Below, in pieces: positions 2,815 to 9,674 of a stretch of 64,000 nucleotides of DNA; the stretch's first letter is position 1, and each line of letters begins with the position of its first letter. The stretch spans positions 101,909-165,908 of the forward strand of contig DAOPOS010000001.1 of assembly GCA_035358035.1 (NCBI GenBank). The letters are read 5' to 3'. The DNA is from Syntrophales bacterium. GTDB taxonomy: Bacteria > Desulfobacterota > Syntrophia > Syntrophales > UBA2251. The notes below the pieces were generated by a model. The model saw only the letters and a program-made list of their open reading frames with translations, was not told the origin of the DNA and searched no databases. The position numbers and the translations under genes were made by a program.

Positions 2815-4032
2815 ATGGAGAAGAAAAAACAGCAGACCCGTTCACGCATCCTCGATGCCGCCGAGGCCCTCATCCTGGAGAGCAGCATCGAGGAGGTGAC
2901 GATTGCGAAGATCGCGGAGCGGGCCCAGGTAGCCGATTCCCTCGCCTACAAGTACTTCAAGGGCAAGAACGACATCATTTTTTCCGTGGTCGCCGAGCGA
3001 ACCCGCGAGGAAACCGCCCTTTTGCGCGAGCATCTCCAGGGCATCATCGACCCGAAATCCCGGTTGAGCAAGATGATCTGGCACATGCTGAAATACAACG
3101 ATTCGCATTCCAATCACGTGACGAATCTCCTCTTCCGGTGCCGGTCCAACAAGGACTTTTACCGATCCGAAGCGTATCGTCTGATGAAGGAATACGAAGC
3201 CATCCTCCTCAACATCCTCGAGGAGGGCGCCCGGGAGGGTGTGTTCCGGAGCGACATCGACATGAAGCTGATGAAGCACATCATCTTCGGAACGATCGAC
3301 ATCGAGGCCCTCAGCAGCATCGTCACCGGCGAAATCGAGAAGAGCTGCACGGATCTCGACGACATCATGGCCCTGCTCATCCCCATGCTGACAACGAAGG
3401 GCAAGCCCGCCGTGACGAACCGGCAGCAGGCGATCCTGCTCGCGGCGGAGAAGACCTTCGCCCGGCAGGGCTATGCCGACGCCAAGATCGCGGCCATCGC
3501 CGAGGAGGCCCAGGTGGCCGAAGGCACGATTTACGAATACTTTGCCGGCAAGGAAGACCTGCTGTTCGCCCTGTCCGGCAGGAACCTGAACGCCTATCTG
3601 GAAAGGGTTTCCAACATCTTCAACCCGCAGGCCGGCCCCTCCCCGCCGGAAAAATTATGGCGGCTGATGCGTTCCTTCGGTCTGAGCTTCCTGTCCATTC
3701 GGGACTTCATGACGGTCTACTTCATGTATACCCTGTTCAACCGCCGGTACTACCAGACCACCATCCAGCCGAAACAGAATGAATTCGCCCGGATGATGGG
3801 CCAGGTCATCGAGGAGGGCAAACAGGAAGGCACGTTTCGCGCGGACGTGAATCCGCGCGTCTTCTGGTATATGTTTCTGGGGTCCTACACCCACCTCGCC
3901 CTCCGCTGGATCATCATCGACCACAAGGAATTCGACAAGTACACGGAGGTCCGTCACCTGATGACCCTGATGATGACGGCCGCCCTCCGGGAACCCCCCA
4001 ACGTGGAATATCTGGTGCGAATCGAGTTCTGA
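2815..4032 (+). CDS. TetR/AcrR-family regulator with two tandem TetR units in one chain
   Basis: Two separate TetR N-terminal HTH signatures: RILDAAEALILESSIEEVTIAKIAERAQVADSLAYKYFKGKNDI and AILLAAEKTFARQGYADAKIAAIAEEAQVAEGTIYEYFAGKEDL. They lie about 200 aa apart, and each is followed by a helical ligand-domain-sized region. ATG at 2815 (MEKKKQ). Confidence 0.85.
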   Translation: MEKKKQQTRSRILDAAEALILESSIEEVTIAKIAERAQVADSLAYKYFKGKNDIIFSVVAERTREETALLREHLQGIIDPKSRLSKMIWHMLKYNDSHSNHVTNLLFRCRSNKDFYRSEAYRLMKEYEAILLNILEEGAREGVFRSDIDMKLMKHIIFGTIDIEALSSIVTGEIEKSCTDLDDIMALLIPMLTTKGKPAVTNRQQAILLAAEKTFARQGYADAKIAAIAEEAQVAEGTIYEYFAGKEDLLFALSGRNLNAYLERVSNIFNPQAGPSPPEKLWRLMRSFGLSFLSIRDFMTVYFMYTLFNRRYYQTTIQPKQNEFARMMGQVIEEGKQEGTFRADVNPRVFWYMFLGSYTHLALRWIIIDHKEFDKYTEVRHLMTLMMTAALREPPNVEYLVRIEF

Positions 4033-4354
4033 TTCCGCCCGCCTCCGGCCCCGACCGGGAGGACGTCCCACCGGCATCGCGACGCCCCGTCTCAGCGCGT
4101 GATATGACCGTCGGCCGTCGTTCCGGCTTCTGGCCCATTCCGTCGGACCCAAAGCACCGATCTCTTTCTTCAGAACCTGCTCCATGAGCTTCATTGTGTA
4201 TTATCACCTACGGTATTTTCATATACAATATCATTTCCATTTGACACCTAATCTATCTTATGCCAGGATTTTCTCAATCAGAAATCAAGAATGTGGGTCA
4301 TAGAAAGCCGCCGTTGGACGGCCTACACCATGTTGGGCACACCAAGGAGGAACC

Positions 4355-4778
4355 ATGAGCATGGGAAATAAAGGTTGGCCAAGAAATCAAAGTACTGGAC
4401 CAAATGGTGGACTATCTGCCGGACCGGGCGGTGGTATGTCTACAGGTCCAAATGGTGGCGCATCAACTGGGCCAGGTGGTGGAATGTCAACAGGGCCTGG
4501 CGGTGGTCTTTCAACTGGACCAGGGGGGGGGATTATCGACTGGACCAGAAGGAGGTTTATCAACTGGACCGGGTGGGGGCTTATCTACAGGTCCAGGTGG
4601 GGGACTGTCCACTGGACCGGGGGGGGGCCTTTCGACCGGTCCCGGCGGTGGTATGTCCACTGGGCTGACACCCTACTACAGTAACATCCCCCCATGGCCT
4701 GTTTTTGTAAAAGAACTTGAAAAACGGGGGATGCACCAGTACGCCGAACTTATCCGTCAATATCTCCCAAATGTTTAA
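4355..4778 (+). pseudogene. Glycine-rich STGPGGG(L/M) octapeptide-repeat protein, reading frame broken at a G9 tract
   Basis: Track ORFs 4355..4684 and 4404..4778 carry the same repeat in two frames. The frame switches at the 9-G run 4523-4531. Removing one G, or a +1 shift skipping A4532, gives one 141-aa product. RBS AAGGAGG lies before ATG 4355. Confidence 0.6.
4391..4655 (+). repeat. 11 tandem 24-nt coding repeats (octapeptide S-T-G-P-x-G-G-L/M)
   Basis: The span is 265 nt = 11 x 24 + 1. The extra nucleotide is the additional G in the 4523-4531 homopolymer. Confidence 0.9.
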
Positions 4779-4853: not shown

Positions 4854-5621
4854 ATGAATTTTACACATTACGACCTTGGTCAAAAAAGGGGAGGAGAAAT
4901 CATTGAGGTGACATTACAGGGAAGTGCGGCCAACGTCCGACTAATGGATTCTTCTAATTTCAATAGTTACCGAAACGGGCGGAGTCACAGATATCAAGGA
5001 GGGCTTGTTAAGAGATCGCCTTATCGACTTCAAGTGCCCAGGTCAGGGCATTGGCATGTCACCATTGACATGGCAGGGCTTAGAGGCACAGTCCGTTCTT
5101 CTATTCGTCAATTGCCGGGGGCATTGCCGACAGCACAAGAAGCTCCCCTATCATCAGTTCCTTCTCTCGTCCGAGGGAGAGAACCAGATTTTCACACCGA
5201 AGATGATCGTGAATTTGATGTTTTCATCTCGCATGCATCCGAAGACAAGGATGAAGTCGTTCGCCCACTGGCCCATTCCCTTAAACAAGGAGGTCTAAAA
5301 GTTTGGTATGATGAATTTGAACTCAAGATAGGAGATAGCCTTAGGAGAAAGATAGACAGCGGTCTTGCAAAAAGCCGTTTTGGTATTGTTGTTTTTTCTA
5401 AGGCTTTTCTTACAAAAGGATGGACCAACTATGAACTGGATGGTTTGGTAACGAAAACCGTAAGCGGGGAGCAGGTCTTGCTTCCCATTTGGCATAATGT
5501 AACAAAAAAAGAGATTATTGATTATAGTCCTTCTTTGGCTGACAAAGTTGCGAGAAACACTTCCACTCATACAGTGGAAGAAATCGCTGAAGAAATAGTT
5601 ATGCTTATCAATGGGGATTAA
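4854..5621 (+). CDS. DUF1883-TIR fusion protein
   Basis: The N-terminus MNFTHYDLGQ..GSAANVRLMDSSNFNSYRNGRSHRYQGG..SGHWHVTIDMAG matches the DUF1883 pattern. The C-terminus has TIR motifs FDVFISHASEDKD and KGWTNYELDG (the SxWCxxEL-type motif with the catalytic-position Glu). ATG at 4854; the track starts at TTG 4824. Confidence 0.85.
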   Translation: MNFTHYDLGQKRGGEIIEVTLQGSAANVRLMDSSNFNSYRNGRSHRYQGGLVKRSPYRLQVPRSGHWHVTIDMAGLRGTVRSSIRQLPGALPTAQEAPLSSVPSLVRGREPDFHTEDDREFDVFISHASEDKDEVVRPLAHSLKQGGLKVWYDEFELKIGDSLRRKIDSGLAKSRFGIVVFSKAFLTKGWTNYELDGLVTKTVSGEQVLLPIWHNVTKKEIIDYSPSLADKVARNTSTHTVEEIAEEIVMLINGD

Positions 5622-5759
5622 ACTAATCTCATAAAACCAAATTGCCCAACAAGGCGCTTTCAGTCGGACGCTCAAACAGCTGCGCGCCGCTGAAGCGCAA
5701 CGTTAGGGCAAGAGAAAAAGATACCGCAAGACAAAACCATACAGGAAAGGTCGGATCAG

Positions 5760-6143
5760 ATGGCACAACCACGGGCGTTTATCAGTTTCGAAATGGAAGA
5801 TAAATGGGCACGCGACTTCCTTGTTCAGCAGGCGAAGGACCGGAAGAACGATATTGCGTTCTACGATTATTCAGTGAAAGACCCCTTCGACTCCAAATGG
5901 AAGACGGAGTGCAGGAAGCGGATCGCGATGACGAAAGGCACCATCGTCTTGGTCGGCGAAACCACATGGAAATCTGAGGCCGTCCTGTGGGAGATCGCTG
6001 AGACAATTAGTCAAGACCACTATATCTTTGGAATCCAGATCAACAGGGACAAGACCCACACAATCCCCAAGGGCTTGCCCAGCCGGAACGTGATACGCTG
6101 GGATTTCGAGCAGATCGTAAAGTGGTTGAAAACATGGGTATGA
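5760..6143 (+). CDS. ThsB-type TIR-like protein (DUF1863 family)
   Basis: AFISFEMEDKWARDFL...GTIVLVGETTWKSEAVLWEIAETI...IFGIQI...VIRWDFEQIVKWL follows the DUF1863/MTH538 TIR-like pattern, including the W-E-I Glu. Confidence 0.85.
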   Translation: MAQPRAFISFEMEDKWARDFLVQQAKDRKNDIAFYDYSVKDPFDSKWKTECRKRIAMTKGTIVLVGETTWKSEAVLWEIAETISQDHYIFGIQINRDKTHTIPKGLPSRNVIRWDFEQIVKWLKTWV

Positions 6144-6149
6144 TCAGTC

Positions 6150-6983
6150 ATGTATCTTGACGACATTGCTTCACGAATCCGGTCACACATCCCAGATGAC
6201 CAGATGCCAGATGAGAACGCAGAGGAGCTGTTGCGCCTTTATGCAGTTCTTCTTCGCGCGAAGGGCACGGGCATTACGGAAAGCGATATCCATGACGCTT
6301 GGTCGGCGTGGATGTCCACACGTGACGAGTCTCATAAGGCTCTTGTCAATTATGAAGATCTCCCACCCGAAGTTCGCGACGCGGATAGTGTCTTCGCGAG
6401 TGCTGTCCGGAAAGCGGCTCAGGAGTTGGGACAAAGCAACGTGCTCCTCCCTGAGTTTGAAAGAATACTTTTCCCGTCGGGTCCCCCTGCCGATGTTGAA
6501 TCCACCCAACAGGCGCTGGATCTCTACAAAATCATGGTATCGAGTTCCGAGAGCTTGGTGAGCCGTCGTCAGGCGGTCAACACGTTCTTTTTGACAATGA
6601 ACGGTGCGCTTCTGACCGCCTTCGGAATTATTGTCAAGAGTTCTGGCGCAGATCAGCTAAGTGCTCTCGGTATCTTTGTCTTGGCTGTCGCCGGAGCGAT
6701 TCTCTGTGGGGCGTGGCGAAGTCTTATCACGTCATTCGGGCAATTGAATCGGGGCAAGTTCCAGGTGATCAACACGATCGAACGATACTTGAAGACAGCA
6801 ATATACAAAGCCGAGTGGGAAGCTCTCGGTCGCGGCGAGAACCCTAAGATATATAGATCTTTCACATCACGAGAGATATGGGTTCCGAATGCGCTTCTTG
6901 CGTTGCACGTTTTGGCAGCCATAGCCGCGCTTCTTGTGGCAATGGGATATGTCACCTGTGGAGCGGGAGGAGCTACGCCCTAA
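6150..6983 (+). CDS. Membrane protein with an unassigned helical N-domain and 3 predicted TM helices; candidate effector
   Basis: Starts 6 nt after the ThsB-like stop. Residues 1-~135 are soluble. Hydrophobic segments lie at about 143-162 (VNTFFLTMNGALLTAFGIIV), 170-192 and 243-267. I could not assign a family. Confidence 0.7.
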   Translation: MYLDDIASRIRSHIPDDQMPDENAEELLRLYAVLLRAKGTGITESDIHDAWSAWMSTRDESHKALVNYEDLPPEVRDADSVFASAVRKAAQELGQSNVLLPEFERILFPSGPPADVESTQQALDLYKIMVSSSESLVSRRQAVNTFFLTMNGALLTAFGIIVKSSGADQLSALGIFVLAVAGAILCGAWRSLITSFGQLNRGKFQVINTIERYLKTAIYKAEWEALGRGENPKIYRSFTSREIWVPNALLALHVLAAIAALLVAMGYVTCGAGGATP

Positions 6984-7062: not shown

Positions 7063-8328
7063 ATGCCAAGACGGAATGAAAAGGTCGGCGCGACGAACCC
7101 GAGAAAGAGCAGGCAGAAGGTGAATTACGAGATCAAGAAAGACAGAACGTGGCTTGTCCGCGAAGAAGAACGGGTCTACGAGGCTAGGAGCCAAGGCGTT
7201 CTTGGCAGGAAACGCAAGCGGTTCCGATTAATCGATGTGTTCTCCGGCGCGGGAGGGATGACACTCGGATTCTCGAAAATGTTCGGGCACGCATTCGATT
7301 CTGTTTGGGCCAACGATTTTGACGATGCCTGTGTGCATACGTATCGCAGGAACTTCGGAGACCACTGTGTATCAGGTGACATCGTGGATATTCTCGACGA
7401 TCCGAAAACGGAGATTCCATCCGCCGACGTCGTCATTGGCGGGCCACCGTGCCAAGGGTTCAGCCTTCTGAATAAGAACCGCGAGGGCGATCCGCGAAAG
7501 CAACTGTGGCGTCCTTTTCTTGATATTGTCGAGCGTTCCGGAGCTCAAATATTCGTCATGGAGAACGTGCCCCAGCTACTGGGTTCTTTCGAGCATGGTG
7601 AAATCATGGGCACGGCTGAAGCCTTGGGCTTCAGCTGCTGGGGAGAAGTTCTTTGCGCAGCCGACTACGGTGTTCCGCAGACTCGCCGTCGGGCGATCAT
7701 CGTCGGGTGCAAGTTTTTCGACCCGTCTCAGGTTTTTCCGCCGCGGAAAACACACTTCGACCCGCGCAAGGGGGGCGCACAAATCTCCTTTTTGCAGGCC
7801 GACAGCAAAGGGTATCTGCCTGGCGCCGTGAAGTGGCGCACGGTGTGCGATGCGATTGCGGATCTTCCGCCGCCGAAGGGAACGGAGATTCGTGAAGAGG
7901 CCCCACCGCTTGATCTCCACTTCGGACGTTCTCCTACGCCGATGAGCATGGCCCGATACAAGGTGATTCCTGAAGAGGGCATGAACCGTTTCGACCTACA
8001 GAAGCGTGCGCCCGATCTGACTCCCGGTTGCTGGATTCGGAAGAAAAGCGGCGGCACGGATCTTTTCGGTCGGCTGTGGTGGGACCGTCCTGCGTTCACG
8101 ATTCGGACGGAGTTCTTCAAGCCGGAGAAGGGCCGGTATCTGCACCCGAAACAGCACAGACCGATAACGCACCGAGAAGCAGCGCGTTTGCAGTCCTTCC
8201 CGGATGAGTTCGTATTCACGGGATCGAAAATCGAGATTGCGCGGCAGATTGGGAACGCCGTGCCGCCGCGCCTAGCGGCACGCGTGGCCGACGTGGTGTA
8301 TCTGCTCCTGACGATGAACAACCGGTGA
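7063..8328 (+). CDS. DNA (cytosine-5)-methyltransferase
   Basis: Motif I DVFSGAGGMTLGF, motif IV GGPPCQGFS, motif VI FVMENV, motif VIII QTRRR, motif X GNAVPP. Confidence 0.9.
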   Translation: MPRRNEKVGATNPRKSRQKVNYEIKKDRTWLVREEERVYEARSQGVLGRKRKRFRLIDVFSGAGGMTLGFSKMFGHAFDSVWANDFDDACVHTYRRNFGDHCVSGDIVDILDDPKTEIPSADVVIGGPPCQGFSLLNKNREGDPRKQLWRPFLDIVERSGAQIFVMENVPQLLGSFEHGEIMGTAEALGFSCWGEVLCAADYGVPQTRRRAIIVGCKFFDPSQVFPPRKTHFDPRKGGAQISFLQADSKGYLPGAVKWRTVCDAIADLPPPKGTEIREEAPPLDLHFGRSPTPMSMARYKVIPEEGMNRFDLQKRAPDLTPGCWIRKKSGGTDLFGRLWWDRPAFTIRTEFFKPEKGRYLHPKQHRPITHREAARLQSFPDEFVFTGSKIEIARQIGNAVPPRLAARVADVVYLLLTMNNR

Positions 8329-8329
8329 C

Positions 8330-8743
8330 ATGACCGACATATTCTCCAAAGAGAAGCGAAGCTGGATCATGAGTCGCGTCAAGGGGCGCGACACCAAGCC
8401 GGAGATGTTGGTTCGTTCGTTTGTTCATCGGATGGGATTTCGCTTTCGGGTTCATAGGCGTGACCTGCCGGGGAACCCGGATATCGTACTGCCGCGATAC
8501 GGAAAAGTGATCTTCGTGCACGGATGTTTCTGGCACGGGCACAACCGGTGTCCGCGATCGAAGCGGCCGGCAACGAACAAGAGCTTCTGGAACAAGAAGC
8601 TCGATGCGAACATCGAGCGAGATAAGCGCTTCCGAAGGGAGCTACGTCGGATGGGTTGGAAGTTGTTGGTAGTATGGCAATGCGAGACCCACAACCCGGA
8701 GAAACTGTTGGGGAAGCTGGAAAGGTTTCTGTATGACGAATGA
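8330..8743 (+). CDS. vsr: Very-short-patch repair endonuclease
   Basis: SWIMSRVKGRDTKPEMLVRSFVHRMGFRFRVHRRDLPGNPDIVLPRYGKVIFVHGCFWHGH is a typical Vsr sequence. It starts 2 nt after the methyltransferase stop. Confidence 0.9.
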   Translation: MTDIFSKEKRSWIMSRVKGRDTKPEMLVRSFVHRMGFRFRVHRRDLPGNPDIVLPRYGKVIFVHGCFWHGHNRCPRSKRPATNKSFWNKKLDANIERDKRFRRELRRMGWKLLVVWQCETHNPEKLLGKLERFLYDE

Positions 8744-9674
8744 ACGAAAGAAGGTGACGGCTGGCGACCCGGAAGTCGTAAGGCAGAAGGTTGCAAAACT
8801 TATCGCGAACTTCGAAGCGGAGCTCCAGTCGGGCGAGCTTCGCCCGAAGGTTCTTGCCCTGATTCCGATCTTCCACGGGCTGCGCGACATTGGCAAGGCA
8901 CTGATACCGACCGAGTACGCTTCGGCCGCGAGAGACCGGATCCTGTACTACTTCCGGCAGTATCCTGGGACGATTATCAACAGCGACGAGCTGCTTGTCG
9001 TCTCGGGGATTCAGGAGTACGCGCGGCGCTTGCGCGAACTGCGTGTGCAGTTCGGTTGGGCAATCGTGAGCGGCGTCACGATCAAGGAAATGCGCGAGGA
9101 CGAAGCCGATGAAGTACCGGCCGAACTAAAGACCATGAGGCCGAATGAATATGTTCTCTTGAGTGCGGCCGAAGATCGCGACGCGGCGCATCGCTGGCAC
9201 GTCGCGAACACGATCCGCAAGGAGCGCGGATCTATACGCGGCAAGATTCTGAAGTTTCTTCGGGCAAACGTTGGGCGCGGTGTGACGAACGAGGAGTTGC
9301 GCTATGTAGCCGGGGACAAAACGGAGTGGGCACGACGCGTGCGCGAGCTGCGGACGGAGCATGGTTGGCCCATAGCGACAAAGACCACCGGGCGCCCGGA
9401 TTTGGGCGTCGGGGTCTACGTGTTGCAGGCAGACCGGCAAAGCCCGGAACATGACCGCAGCATTCCGGACGATGTTCGTCGGGAAGTGCTGCGGCGCGAC
9501 GGGTACAAGTGTCGAATATGCGGTTGGTCACACGAAGAATGGAATCCGTCCGACCCACGACATCTGGAGTTGCATCATATAGAGCATCATGCGAAGGGCG
9601 GTGCGAACGTGGGGGAGAACCTGAAGACCTTATGCACCGTCTGCCATGACAAGGTACACCGCAGGGAGAAGTGA
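8733..9674 (+). CDS. HNH endonuclease with two tandem wHTH-like N-terminal modules; probable restriction component
   Basis: C-terminal HNH motif: CRICGW...HLELHHIEHHAKGG...NLKTLCTVCHDKVH. Internal duplication: RILYYFRQYPG..DELLVVSGIQEYARRLRELRVQFGWAI versus KILKFLRANVG..EELRYVAGDKTEWARRVRELRTEHGWPI. Overlaps vsr by 11 nt. Confidence 0.8.
   Translation: MTNERKKVTAGDPEVVRQKVAKLIANFEAELQSGELRPKVLALIPIFHGLRDIGKALIPTEYASAARDRILYYFRQYPGTIINSDELLVVSGIQEYARRLRELRVQFGWAIVSGVTIKEMREDEADEVPAELKTMRPNEYVLLSAAEDRDAAHRWHVANTIRKERGSIRGKILKFLRANVGRGVTNEELRYVAGDKTEWARRVRELRTEHGWPIATKTTGRPDLGVGVYVLQADRQSPEHDRSIPDDVRREVLRRDGYKCRICGWSHEEWNPSDPRHLELHHIEHHAKGGANVGENLKTLCTVCHDKVHRREK

What the first reader, a model, noticed from the sequence alone, without database searches (positions are those of the whole stretch)
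4355..4778. Octapeptide-repeat glycine-rich gene broken by exactly one nucleotide in a G9 tract, directly upstream of the TIR genes
Eleven perfect-length 24-nt units encode S-T-G-P-x-G-G-L/M. The repeat block is 265 nt, which is 11 x 24 + 1. The frame changes at the 9-G run 4523-4531. Either a G8 allele or a +1 shift skipping A4532 restores P-G-G-G-L-S-T and a 141-aa protein. That protein has a non-repetitive C-terminal tail ([36 protein letters not shown]). A second G9 run at 4619-4627 is in frame. The break could be a homopolymer sequencing error, a slipped-strand phase-variable switch, or translational frameshifting. I do not recognise the repeat family, and its position at the head of a defence-like locus is unusual.
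Basis: seen in the sequence. Interest (0 to 1): 0.6.

Follow-up and report, generated by a model that had tools for sequence, protein, structure and literature searches.

The report
Frameshifted octapeptide-repeat gene in defence island
This is a real gene for a small, widespread repeat protein of unknown function that travels in bacterial immune-gene islands, and in this strain one extra G in a run of eight Gs has switched it off, while closely related strains keep it intact.

Summary
Window 4391-4655 holds eleven 24-nt units (S-T-G-P-x-G-G-L/M) plus one extra base. The frame breaks at the G9 run 4523-4531. Removing one G gives a 140-aa protein.

That protein matches a widespread, uncharacterised family: a W-P-R-N motif, 11-12 octapeptide units with invariant G-G, an S-N-I-P-P-W motif and a two-helix tail. 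Divergent members hit Pfam PF20080 (ALTTAQ repeat). The family occurs sporadically across bacterial phyla. It sits in defence or mobile islands, in a Vibrio superintegron cassette, on Bacillus plasmids, and as the only cargo of a 2.4-kb Weissella plasmid.

Orthologous loci settle most of the question:
- Three assemblies at 97-99% identity carry G8 and an intact ORF.
- The G9 allele recurs in two other assemblies of the window's near-clonal lineage. One comes from a different metagenome and differs by 2 SNPs.

The break is therefore most likely a genuine, lineage-specific slipped-strand insertion giving a null allele. It is probably not an assembly error, and it is not programmed recoding. Long G runs are not a family feature: 161 other copies have runs of 7 or fewer. 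An evolved phase switch is unproven. The link to TIR genes is occasional, not obligate. Molecular function remains unknown.

The parts
4201..4229 (+). Promoter-like site (TTATCA-17-TACAAT) in the AT-rich spacer upstream of the gene
   Evidence: Consensus scan only, 9 of 12 matches. This is a weak, inferred feature.
4344..4350 (+). Shine-Dalgarno sequence AAGGAGG, 4 nt before ATG 4355
   Evidence: Read directly from the sequence. It supports 4355 as the true start, giving [11 protein letters not shown]. Family members likewise start 1-12 residues before WPRN.
4355..4778 (+). Octapeptide-repeat protein gene, broken by +1 G in this strain. The G8 form encodes 140 aa.
   Evidence: for the ORFs. 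Intact G8 orthologues are in L002, L003 and L005.
4376..4387 (+). Codons for the N-terminal W-P-R-N motif
   Evidence: W8, P9 and R10 are invariant in a 30-sequence alignment. AlphaFold2 pairs residues 8-9 with residues 108-109.
4391..4655 (+). Array of eleven 24-nt units (S-T-G-P-x-G-G-L/M) plus the extra G: 265 nt
   Evidence: Third-codon-position variation in the restored frame on both sides of the tract.
4523..4531 (+). G9 homopolymer, the frameshift site. It is G8 in intact orthologues.
   Evidence: G9 is in the window, L004 (Logan assembly of SRA run SRR4236664) and L184 (JGI 3300009675). G8 is in L002, L003 and L005. The contig of L006 ends here.
4619..4627 (+). Second G9 homopolymer, in frame (P-G-G-G-L). 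It does not vary among the assemblies.
   Evidence: It is G9 in L002-L006 and L184. It serves as an internal control showing that 9-G runs are assembled reproducibly.
4656..4778 (+). 12th degenerate unit and the non-repetitive C-terminal tail ([13 protein letters not shown]...LIRQYLPNV) with its stop, read in the +1 frame of the window
   Evidence: S109, N110, P112 and P113 are invariant in the family. Two helices are predicted at residues 114-123 and 127-136.
4854..6983 (+). Context, not shown to be one functional unit with the repeat gene. Three co-directional genes: DUF1883-TIR (4854-5621), ThsB-like TIR (5760-6143) and a DUF7701-8xMP membrane protein (6150-6983).
   Evidence: Pfam and PADLOC hits. 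There is a 75-nt gap after the repeat gene and no terminator-like site between them.
7063..9674 (+). Context: a restriction-modification-like module of Dcm-type C5 methyltransferase, Vsr and HNH endonuclease that completes the low-GC island

Best explanation
Window 4355-4778 is a genuine gene of a widespread, uncharacterised small-protein family.

**Family layout.** The layout is a short N-terminus with W-P-R-N, then 11-12 non-interchangeable octapeptide units (S/T-x-x-x-G-G-hydrophobic), then S-N-I-P-P-W and two C-terminal helices. The family is related to Pfam's ALTTAQ repeat (PF20080). It moves horizontally and sits in defence or mobile islands, integron cassettes and plasmids.

**What happened here.** In the window's near-clonal lineage, a G8 run inside the sixth unit gained one G by slipped-strand mispairing. 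This step is inferred from the tract and from the G8/G9 allele pair. Translation from ATG 4355 then leaves the frame after residue 59 and stops at 4684. The strain therefore makes only a truncated, presumably inactive product. This is a recent null (OFF) allele.

**Normal state.** Sister strains at 97-99% identity keep G8 and an ordinary, conventionally decoded 140-aa ORF.

**Shown**
- The repeat anatomy and family membership.
- The G8 and G9 alleles in independent assemblies.
- Long-term purifying selection on both halves of the gene.

**Inferred**
- The mutational mechanism.
- Loss of function.
- Recency.

**Unknown**
- What the protein does. My best guess is a folded, glycine-rich closed solenoid acting in or alongside anti-phage or mobile-element functions. 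This rests only on its genomic neighbourhoods and an AlphaFold model.
For: **Family membership**
- 855 database proteins match at E <= 1e-3. The top hits are 85-91% identical and share the N- and C-terminal non-repeat motifs.
- The spacing from W to SNIPP is 101-103 residues in most members. It is exactly 101 in the G8-restored window protein.
- W8, P9, R10, nearly every G-G pair, S109, N110, P112 and P113 are invariant.
- A profile search finds 879 clusters at 50% identity among 1.84 billion representatives.

**Intact orthologues**
- L002 (98.3% identical), L003 (99.0%) and L005 (97.1%) have G8 and the full ORF.

**G9 replicated**
- L004 (Logan assembly of SRA run SRR4236664) is 100% identical to the window over 8.5 kb and has G9.
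- L184 (JGI 3300009675) is 99.97% identical with 2 SNPs, so it is a different consensus, and it also has G9.

**Assembly quality**
- The second G9 run is identical in all assemblies.
- The other homopolymers of 8 or more bases in the window lie in long intact ORFs.

**Selection**
- Variation between units is concentrated at the third codon position on both sides of the tract.
- Against L001, dN is 0.06-0.08 with saturated dS for both halves.

**No recoding signals**
- The downstream fold has z = -1.2.
- G8 orthologues decode normally.

**Genomic context**
- Neighbours in 80 genomes include TIR proteins, pAgo (prokaryotic Argonaute), type I restriction-modification, GajA, SduA, a defence-associated reverse transcriptase (PADLOC model RT_UG17), LmuB, SoFic, HerA, integrases and transposases.
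- One homologue is a superintegron cassette.
- Others lie on plasmids.
Against: - I could not see raw reads, so majority or minority G lengths within any sample are unknown.
- One assembly of the same lineage (L006, JGI 3300010346) breaks exactly at the tract with G-biased junk bases. This shows that reads there can be poor or heterogeneous.
- The samples carrying G9 may come from related digesters. Their independence is inferred only from different accession numbers and 2 SNPs.
- Apart from the single G, the gene shows no decay. That fits a very recent mutation, but it also fits an artefact or a reversible switch.
- Loss of function of the truncated product is assumed, not tested.
Confidence: 0.7

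Rival explanations
1. Sequencing or assembly artefact. The true sequence is G8 and the gene is intact in this strain too. The extra G would be a homopolymer miscall carried into the consensus.
For: - This is the only apparent frameshift in 64 kb, and it sits in one of the two longest homopolymers.
- The contig of L006, from the same lineage, ends in this tract with G-biased errors.
- The gene is otherwise pristine.
Against: - G9 is reproduced by three assemblies: the window, Logan SRR4236664 and JGI 3300009675. The last comes from another data set and differs by 2 SNPs.
- The neighbouring G9 run is assembled consistently everywhere.
- The window shows no general homopolymer-indel problem.
Confidence: 0.12
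2. Evolved contingency locus. The poly-G tract is a selected, reversible ON/OFF switch (slipped-strand phase variation) for this defence-island gene, and the window caught the OFF phase.
For: - G8 and G9 alleles both exist among strains at least 97% identical.
- The gene has two G runs of 8 or more. That arises in only 3.6% of synonymous glycine-codon shuffles.
- None of 161 other family copies has a run longer than 7.
- One assembly breaks at the tract.
Against: - The alleles partition perfectly by clade: G9 only in the sequences that are at least 99.95% identical, G8 only in the 97-99% relatives. That fits a single event.
- The second G9 tract never varies.
- Long tracts are absent from the rest of the family, so this is not a family design.
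- There is no evidence of within-sample heterogeneity.
Confidence: 0.12
3. Programmed recoding. Full-length protein is made from the G9 template, either by +1 ribosomal frameshifting on GGG-G or by transcriptional slippage that drops one G from the mRNA.
For: - A +1 slip of tRNA-Gly on G-GGG re-pairs perfectly.
- Skipping one base restores the exact family sequence.
- Homopolymer runs of 9 can support RNA-polymerase slippage. This rests on general knowledge, mostly documented for A/T runs.
Against: - Orthologues use an in-frame G8, so recoding is not conserved.
- The codon after the tract is an ordinary AUU, not a stop or a rare codon (sequence).
- There is no significant downstream structure.
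- No other family member needs a shift at this position.
Confidence: 0.04

Closest known systems
Pfam PF20080 'ALTTAQ repeat' proteins (function unknown)
   Same: - Homologous over the full length: 57-65% identity in one alignment.
- Same W-P-R-N start, same 11-12 units of 8 residues with invariant G-G followed by L/M/A, and same S-N-I-P-P-W plus two-helix tail.
   Different: - The window protein belongs to the S-T-G-P-G-G-G subtype, which does not reach the Pfam model (no hit at E <= 0.01).
- It lacks the C-terminal L-W-P-E-N-F-F extension of the S-T-S-Q-Y-G-G subtype.
- Pfam models only the repeat, not the whole protein.
Homopolymeric-tract phase-variable (contingency) genes, such as the poly-G/C tracts of Neisseria, Haemophilus, Campylobacter and Helicobacter (from general knowledge)
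   Same: A G8/G9 run inside the ORF. Its length differs between very close strains and toggles the reading frame.
   Different: - No evidence of within-population switching.
- The alleles follow clade structure.
- A second equal-length tract is invariant.
- The tract is lineage-specific rather than a conserved design.
Programmed +1 frameshifting (prfB type) and transcriptional slippage at homopolymers (from general knowledge)
   Same: A single-base frame correction at a slippery homopolymer would restore the product.
   Different: - The frameshift is not conserved in orthologues.
- There is no stop or hungry codon at the site.
- There is no stimulatory structure.
Thoeris-type TIR defence operons, including the recently expanded types V-XI (preprint 10.64898/2025.12.03.692087)
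   Same: - The gene lies 75 nt upstream of, and on the same strand as, two TIR genes and a predicted oligomeric membrane protein.
- A homologue in a Sedimentisphaerales metagenome-assembled genome lies directly upstream of a TIR-HEAT protein.
   Different: - The repeat protein matches no PADLOC model.
- It is not mentioned in that preprint.
- In most genomes it has non-TIR neighbours.
Glycine-rich solenoid or polyglycine-II repeat proteins, such as ice-nucleation and antifreeze repeats and RTX beta-rolls (a resemblance recalled from memory, not a tested match)
   Same: - Short 8-residue glycine-containing units in a fixed number.
- A model with moderate confidence and no regular helix or strand in the repeats.
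   Different: - No structural match by Foldseek to the PDB or BFVD.
- No sequence match to solved structures other than a low-complexity region.

Membership tests
WPRN / octapeptide-repeat / SNIPPW small-protein family (ALTTAQ-repeat related) | N-terminal W-P-R-[N/D] motif a few residues after the start | tested here: met
   W8-P9-R10-N11 in the window. W, P and R are invariant in 30 sequences.
WPRN / octapeptide-repeat / SNIPPW small-protein family (ALTTAQ-repeat related) | 11-12 tandem 8-residue units with invariant G-G followed by L/M/A, and a W-to-SNIPP spacing of 101-103 residues | tested here: met
   The spacing is 101 in the G8-restored product and is lost in the G9 reading.
WPRN / octapeptide-repeat / SNIPPW small-protein family (ALTTAQ-repeat related) | C-terminal Y-x-S-N-I-P-P-W motif followed by two short helices | tested here: met
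   S109, N110, P112 and P113 are invariant. Helices are predicted at 114-123 and 127-136. In the window these are encoded in the +1 frame.
WPRN / octapeptide-repeat / SNIPPW small-protein family (ALTTAQ-repeat related) | Score above the Pfam PF20080 gathering threshold | tested here: not met
   The restored window protein has no hit at E <= 0.01. Relatives at 57-60% identity do pass, for example P0075 at 56.5 bits against a cutoff of 26.4. Homology to them is shown by direct alignment.
Phase-variable contingency locus (homopolymeric tract) | Homopolymer of 8 or more bases inside the ORF, with length differing between closely related strains and switching the frame | tested here: met
   G9 in the window, L004 and L184. 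G8 in L002, L003 and L005.
Phase-variable contingency locus (homopolymeric tract) | Reversible, high-frequency length heterogeneity within a population | not testable with these tools
   Raw reads are needed. The only hint is a contig break at the tract in L006.
Phase-variable contingency locus (homopolymeric tract) | Tract maintained as a feature of the gene rather than a one-off event | tested here: inconclusive
   Two runs of 8 or more occur in this lineage (p about 0.036 by codon shuffle). However, 161 other family copies have runs of 7 or fewer, the alleles split by clade, and the second tract is invariant.
Programmed +1 ribosomal frameshift / transcriptional slippage | Frameshift requirement conserved in orthologues | tested here: not met
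   Orthologues at 97-99% identity are in frame with G8. More distant homologues are in frame at this position.
Programmed +1 ribosomal frameshift / transcriptional slippage | Stimulatory context: a stop or rare codon at the shift site, or a downstream structure | tested here: not met
   The next codon is AUU. An 80-nt downstream fold gives z = -1.22 against shuffles.
Thoeris / TIR defence system component | Conserved co-occurrence with a TIR gene across the family | tested here: not met
   In one search, TIR_2 matched 3 and CAP12-PCTIR_TIR matched 2 of the 72 upstream neighbours. Since one protein can match both models, this is 3 to 5 neighbours. One downstream neighbour (L027) also carries TIR. 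TIR does not recur among the second neighbours, where it appears only once (L064). All other neighbours are diverse.
Thoeris / TIR defence system component | Match to a known defence-system protein model | tested here: not met
   No PADLOC, NCBIfam or Pfam hit for the restored protein.

The most novel reading that the evidence does not exclude
The WPRN/octapeptide-repeat protein could be a functional, previously unrecognised component of bacterial immune islands. It might act alone, as its presence as a single integron cassette or sole plasmid cargo would suggest, or together with TIR enzymes. It might have a new closed glycine-rich solenoid fold. In this digester lineage it might also have acquired poly-G tracts that work as a heritable ON/OFF contingency switch.
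Probability: 0.1. Interest if true: 0.7.

Novelty: new member of a known kind. Interest (0 to 1): 0.38.

Why it matters
- **The frameshift itself is ordinary.** A single-G slip in a homopolymer gives a strain-specific null allele. It is useful mainly as a worked example showing that orthologous metagenome assemblies can separate a real allele from an artefact.
- **The gene family is the more valuable by-product.** It comprises several hundred clusters of small, strongly conserved repeat proteins. They have a fixed repeat number, no solved or predicted structural relative, and no known function.
- **The family's distribution points to mobile or defence roles.** It is spread patchily across bacterial phyla (one hit is labelled an archaeon MAG) and sits in defence islands, integron cassettes and small plasmids.
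- **The family is often mis-annotated.** It is frequently missed or called in the wrong frame, so it is under-represented in protein databases and in screens for defence genes.
- **If it does act in phage defence or plasmid biology,** it would be a new, easily testable single-gene candidate.

Tried and rejected
**Searches that found nothing useful**
- Pfam, NCBIfam and PADLOC scans of the restored protein gave no hit.
- A literature search for 'ALTTAQ' found nothing, and '8xMP' found nothing relevant. pJY33 appears only as a cryptic plasmid or vector. The Thoeris V-XI preprint does not mention this family.
- A profile search of PDB sequences found only a low-complexity hit in Plasmodium RON2.
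- An exact DNA pattern across the tract found 0 matches in JGI metagenome contigs.
- An exact-sequence look-up of the 87-, 109-, 124- and 140-aa products found none in the protein collection.
- Look-ups with the acyl-CoA ligase, meant to reach the large contigs, were not on record.
- Rfam and tRNA scans of the window found nothing.

**Analyses that led nowhere**
- A local iterative phmmer search for TIR neighbours was too insensitive. It was replaced by bundled Pfam and PADLOC scans.
- The first alignment (A1) was too diverse for the search for related loci.
- No direct repeats flank the island.

**Readings considered and rejected**
- Minus-strand or other-frame coding, such as the PPPGPVD ORFs or the 87-aa call. 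The codon-position pattern and the conserved non-repeat termini rule these out.
- A phage origin. There was no match in 50,697 phage genomes and only 8 loci in IMG/VR.
- An obligate partnership with TIR genes.

Full report
**1. The observation**

The region reads as described.
- From ATG 4355, preceded by AAGGAGG at 4344-4350, the frame encodes [12 protein letters not shown] followed by octapeptide units.
- Eleven 24-nt units span 4391-4655, which is 265 nt or 11 x 24 + 1.
- A G9 run at 4523-4531 pushes the reading into a junk frame that stops at 4684.
- The +1 frame carries the remaining units and a non-repetitive tail up to TAA at 4776-4778.
- Deleting one G gives a 140-aa protein.
- A second G9 run (4619-4627) is in frame.
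- Tandem Repeats Finder and the repeat finder both see the array.
- Differences between units fall 304/81/44 on codon positions 3/1/2 of the restored frame, and this pattern holds separately before and after the tract.

The whole array is therefore one coding frame that has been under protein-level selection.

**2. What the gene is**

The restored protein finds 855 database proteins at E <= 1e-3. The best hits are 85-91% identical and share the non-repeat ends.

The family has a sharp definition.
- The invariant residues are W8, P9, R10, nearly every G-G pair, and S109, N110, P112, P113.
- The distance from W to SNIPP is 101-103 residues in most members, and exactly 101 in the restored window protein.
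- The last residue of each unit is position-specific (L, M, A, M/L ... M) across subtypes whose middle residues differ (GPG, SQY, ALY, GAY). The units are therefore not interchangeable.
- Shorter forms with 4-10 units also exist.
- Divergent members (S-T-S-Q-Y-G-G units, often with a C-terminal LWPENFF) pass Pfam PF20080 'ALTTAQ repeat'. The window protein itself hits no Pfam, NCBIfam or PADLOC model.
- A profile search of 1.84 billion cluster representatives finds 879 clusters at E <= 1e-3 and 299 at E <= 1e-10.

The structure prediction is consistent but unmatched.
- AlphaFold2 with 62 sequences gives pLDDT 77 and pTM 0.68, and the five models agree (pLDDT 72-77).
- The repeats have no regular helix or strand. 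Residues 8-9 pair with residues 108-109, and two helices end the protein.
- Foldseek finds no relative in the PDB or BFVD.
- A profile search of PDB sequences finds only a low-complexity match.

No paper in the library mentions the family.

**3. Where the family lives**

- A scan of one genome per species found 231 loci. They cover Gamma-, Alpha- and Betaproteobacteria, Bacteroidota, Bacillota, Cyanobacteria, Planctomycetota, Acidobacteriota, Saccharibacteria and one archaeal metagenome-assembled genome (MAG). This patchy spread indicates horizontal mobility.
- Immediate and second neighbours in 80 loci share no recurrent partner, but they are rich in defence and mobile-element genes. Examples are TIR_2 and CAP12-type TIR, pAgo (prokaryotic Argonaute), type I restriction, GajA/PtuA/LmuB-type ATPases, SduA, a defence-associated reverse transcriptase (PADLOC model RT_UG17), SoFic, HerA, OLD-TOPRIM, UvrD, integrases, IS66 and rve transposases.
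- One homologue starts inside a translated Vibrio superintegron attC.
- Others lie on Bacillus plasmids, on Vibrio campbellii chromosome 2, and as the only non-replication gene of the 2,365-bp Weissella cibaria plasmid pJY33.
- No copy is found in 50,697 phage genomes, and only 8 in IMG/VR.

TIR genes are direct neighbours in the following cases:
- the window lineage;
- a Sedimentisphaerales MAG, where the repeat gene lies 88 nt upstream of a TIR-HEAT protein;
- L001, which has a divergently oriented TIR_2 gene;
- a few others: TIR_2 matched 3 and CAP12-type TIR matched 2 of 72 upstream neighbours, which may overlap.

TIR genes are not neighbours in most loci. The head-of-TIR-locus position is therefore typical island co-location with an occasional TIR link, not an obligate system.

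**4. The frame break: orthologous loci**

Exact-protein look-ups with the neighbouring TIR, ThsB-like, 8xMP and Dcm proteins recovered independent assemblies of the same island.

| Locus | Source | Identity to window | First tract |
|---|---|---|---|
| L002 | Logan assembly of SRA run SRR8925804 | 98.3% | G8, intact 140-aa ORF |
| L003 | Logan assembly of SRA run SRR8925767 | 99.0% | G8, intact 140-aa ORF |
| L005 | ENA ERZ773360 | 97.1% | G8, intact 140-aa ORF |
| L004 | Logan assembly of SRA run SRR4236664 | 100% over 8,523 nt | G9 |
| L184 | JGI 3300009675, a different metagenome | 99.97% (two SNPs, both in the TetR gene) | G9 |
| L006 | JGI 3300010346 | 99.95% | contig ends inside the tract with G-biased junk bases |

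- SRR4236664 is a US wastewater data set (PMC7300365).
- The second tract is G9 in all of these assemblies.
- The other homopolymers of 8 or more bases in the window lie in long intact ORFs, and the window as a whole is 92% long ORFs.

The G9 allele is therefore reproducible and belongs to one near-clonal lineage, while sister lineages carry G8. Against a more distant homologue (L001, 88% amino-acid identity), dN is 0.06-0.08 with saturated dS in both halves. No other lesion is present, so the break is recent.

**5. Mechanism and rivals**

- **Best reading (about 0.7).** A genuine slipped-strand +1 G insertion in a G8 run became fixed in this lineage and truncates the protein after residue 59. 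This is a null or OFF allele of a normally, conventionally translated gene.
- **Artefact (about 0.12).** It still has the contig break in L006 and the absence of read-level data in its favour. It must, however, explain G9 in three assemblies from at least two data sets, next to a correctly resolved G9 control tract.
- **Evolved phase switch (about 0.12).** It is compatible with the G8/G9 pair, with two long runs in one gene (3.6% of glycine-codon shuffles) and with the absence of runs longer than 7 in 161 other family copies. Against it, the alleles follow clade structure, the second tract never varies, and within-sample heterogeneity is untested.
- **Programmed recoding (about 0.04).** It fails the conservation test, because orthologues are in frame. 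It also lacks a stop or rare codon and a significant downstream structure (z = -1.22).

Sporadic frameshifted copies elsewhere occur at other positions. Examples are L090, L161, L178 and P0133. They look like ordinary errors or pseudogenes.

**6. Comparison with known kinds, and novelty**

- By homology, the gene is a new member (GPGGG subtype) of the family that Pfam partly captures as the ALTTAQ repeat, whose function is unknown.
- By behaviour, the tract resembles contingency loci, but only the first defining feature (length polymorphism between close strains) is met.
- It is not a demonstrated member of Thoeris or any other defence system.
- The frameshift itself is ordinary.
- The family is the interesting part. 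It is conserved, mobile, associated with defence islands, structurally unmatched and systematically mis-annotated.
- I rate overall interest at 0.38 and the category as 'new member of a known kind'.
- The most novel reading not excluded is a new immune-island protein with a lineage-specific poly-G switch. I put this at about 0.1 probability.

Noticed in passing
L002 5448-5711, L003 1659-1922, L005 4165-4428; L093 3714-4037; L094 and L095 (no annotated gene over the match): Gene callers systematically mis-handle this family. In the intact G8 loci an 87-aa ORF in the wrong frame is called instead of the 140-aa gene. The RefSeq annotation of a Bacillus amyloliquefaciens plasmid has a wrong-frame CDS over an intact family gene. 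The copies in B. velezensis plasmids and in Vibrio campbellii carry no gene in the PLSDB table, which lists only protein-coding genes with accessions and omits pseudogenes. The family is therefore under-represented in protein databases.
   Followed up: partly
window 4854-6983: Three co-directional genes look like a Thoeris-type arrangement: DUF1883-TIR (best PADLOC hit PDC-S66), a ThsB-like TIR, and a DUF7701 + 8xMP ('octameric membrane protein') protein. The membrane effector matches no PADLOC model. I did not find it among the effectors I searched for in the Thoeris V-XI preprint.
   Followed up: partly
window 7063-9674: A Dcm-type C5 methyltransferase, a Vsr mismatch endonuclease and an HNH endonuclease have overlapping or abutting ORFs, forming a restriction-modification-like module. 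It completes a low-GC (0.47-0.59) island inserted between a TetR gene and an acyl-CoA ligase gene in a host background of 0.60-0.75 GC. No flanking direct repeats were found.
   Followed up: partly
L006 1-30 (JGI 3300010346 contig Ga0116239_10025643): This contig is otherwise 100% identical to the window. It ends exactly at the first G tract with G-biased errors (TCTTTCAACGGGGCC-GGGGGGGGG against TCTTTCAACTGGACCAGGGGGGGGG). That hints at poor or heterogeneous reads across the tract in that sample.
   Followed up: no
L092 (Weissella cibaria pJY33, about 205-609): A family member is the only gene besides rep on this 2,365-bp plasmid. The annotated CDS (343-609) is a truncated version of the full ORF, which starts MWIRNRYTGPGGG.
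   Followed up: partly
P0010; L095 2600-3120: Vibrio homologues are integron cassettes. The N-terminus of P0010 matches NCBIfam's 'superintegron attC repeat spurious translation' model.
   Followed up: no
P0001, P0004, P0019, P0021, P0033, P0036, P0079: Some family members carry what looks like an N-terminal signal peptide before WPRN. The window protein and most S-T-S-Q-Y-G-G members start a few residues before WPRN. The family may therefore have both exported and cytoplasmic forms.
   Followed up: no
L090 5950-6000; L161 about 3000-3100; L178 (C-terminus); P0133 (C-terminus): Other frameshifted copies of family genes occur in unrelated assemblies. They are at different positions: near WPRN, after unit 2, and in the C-run of the IPPW codons.
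   Followed up: partly
alignment A1 (restored window protein residues 13-100): The eighth residue of each unit is position-specific across subfamilies (unit 1 L, unit 2 M, unit 3 A, ... last unit M). AlphaFold pairs residues 8-9 with residues 108-109. This suggests a closed architecture with a fixed repeat number rather than an open, expandable array.
   Followed up: partly
P0094; P0106; P0026: Some database proteins look like fusions of the family core with other domains: an N-terminal '4-fold beta flower' domain, C-terminal Sel1 repeats, or an ABC/AAA ATPase start. These may be real fusions or read-through and gene-call artefacts.
   Followed up: no
window 4308-4325: A GC-rich hairpin (GCCGCCGTTGGACGGC) lies in the 5' leader about 30 nt upstream of the start codon. 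The scan flags it as terminator-like on the minus strand, where no gene ends.
   Followed up: no
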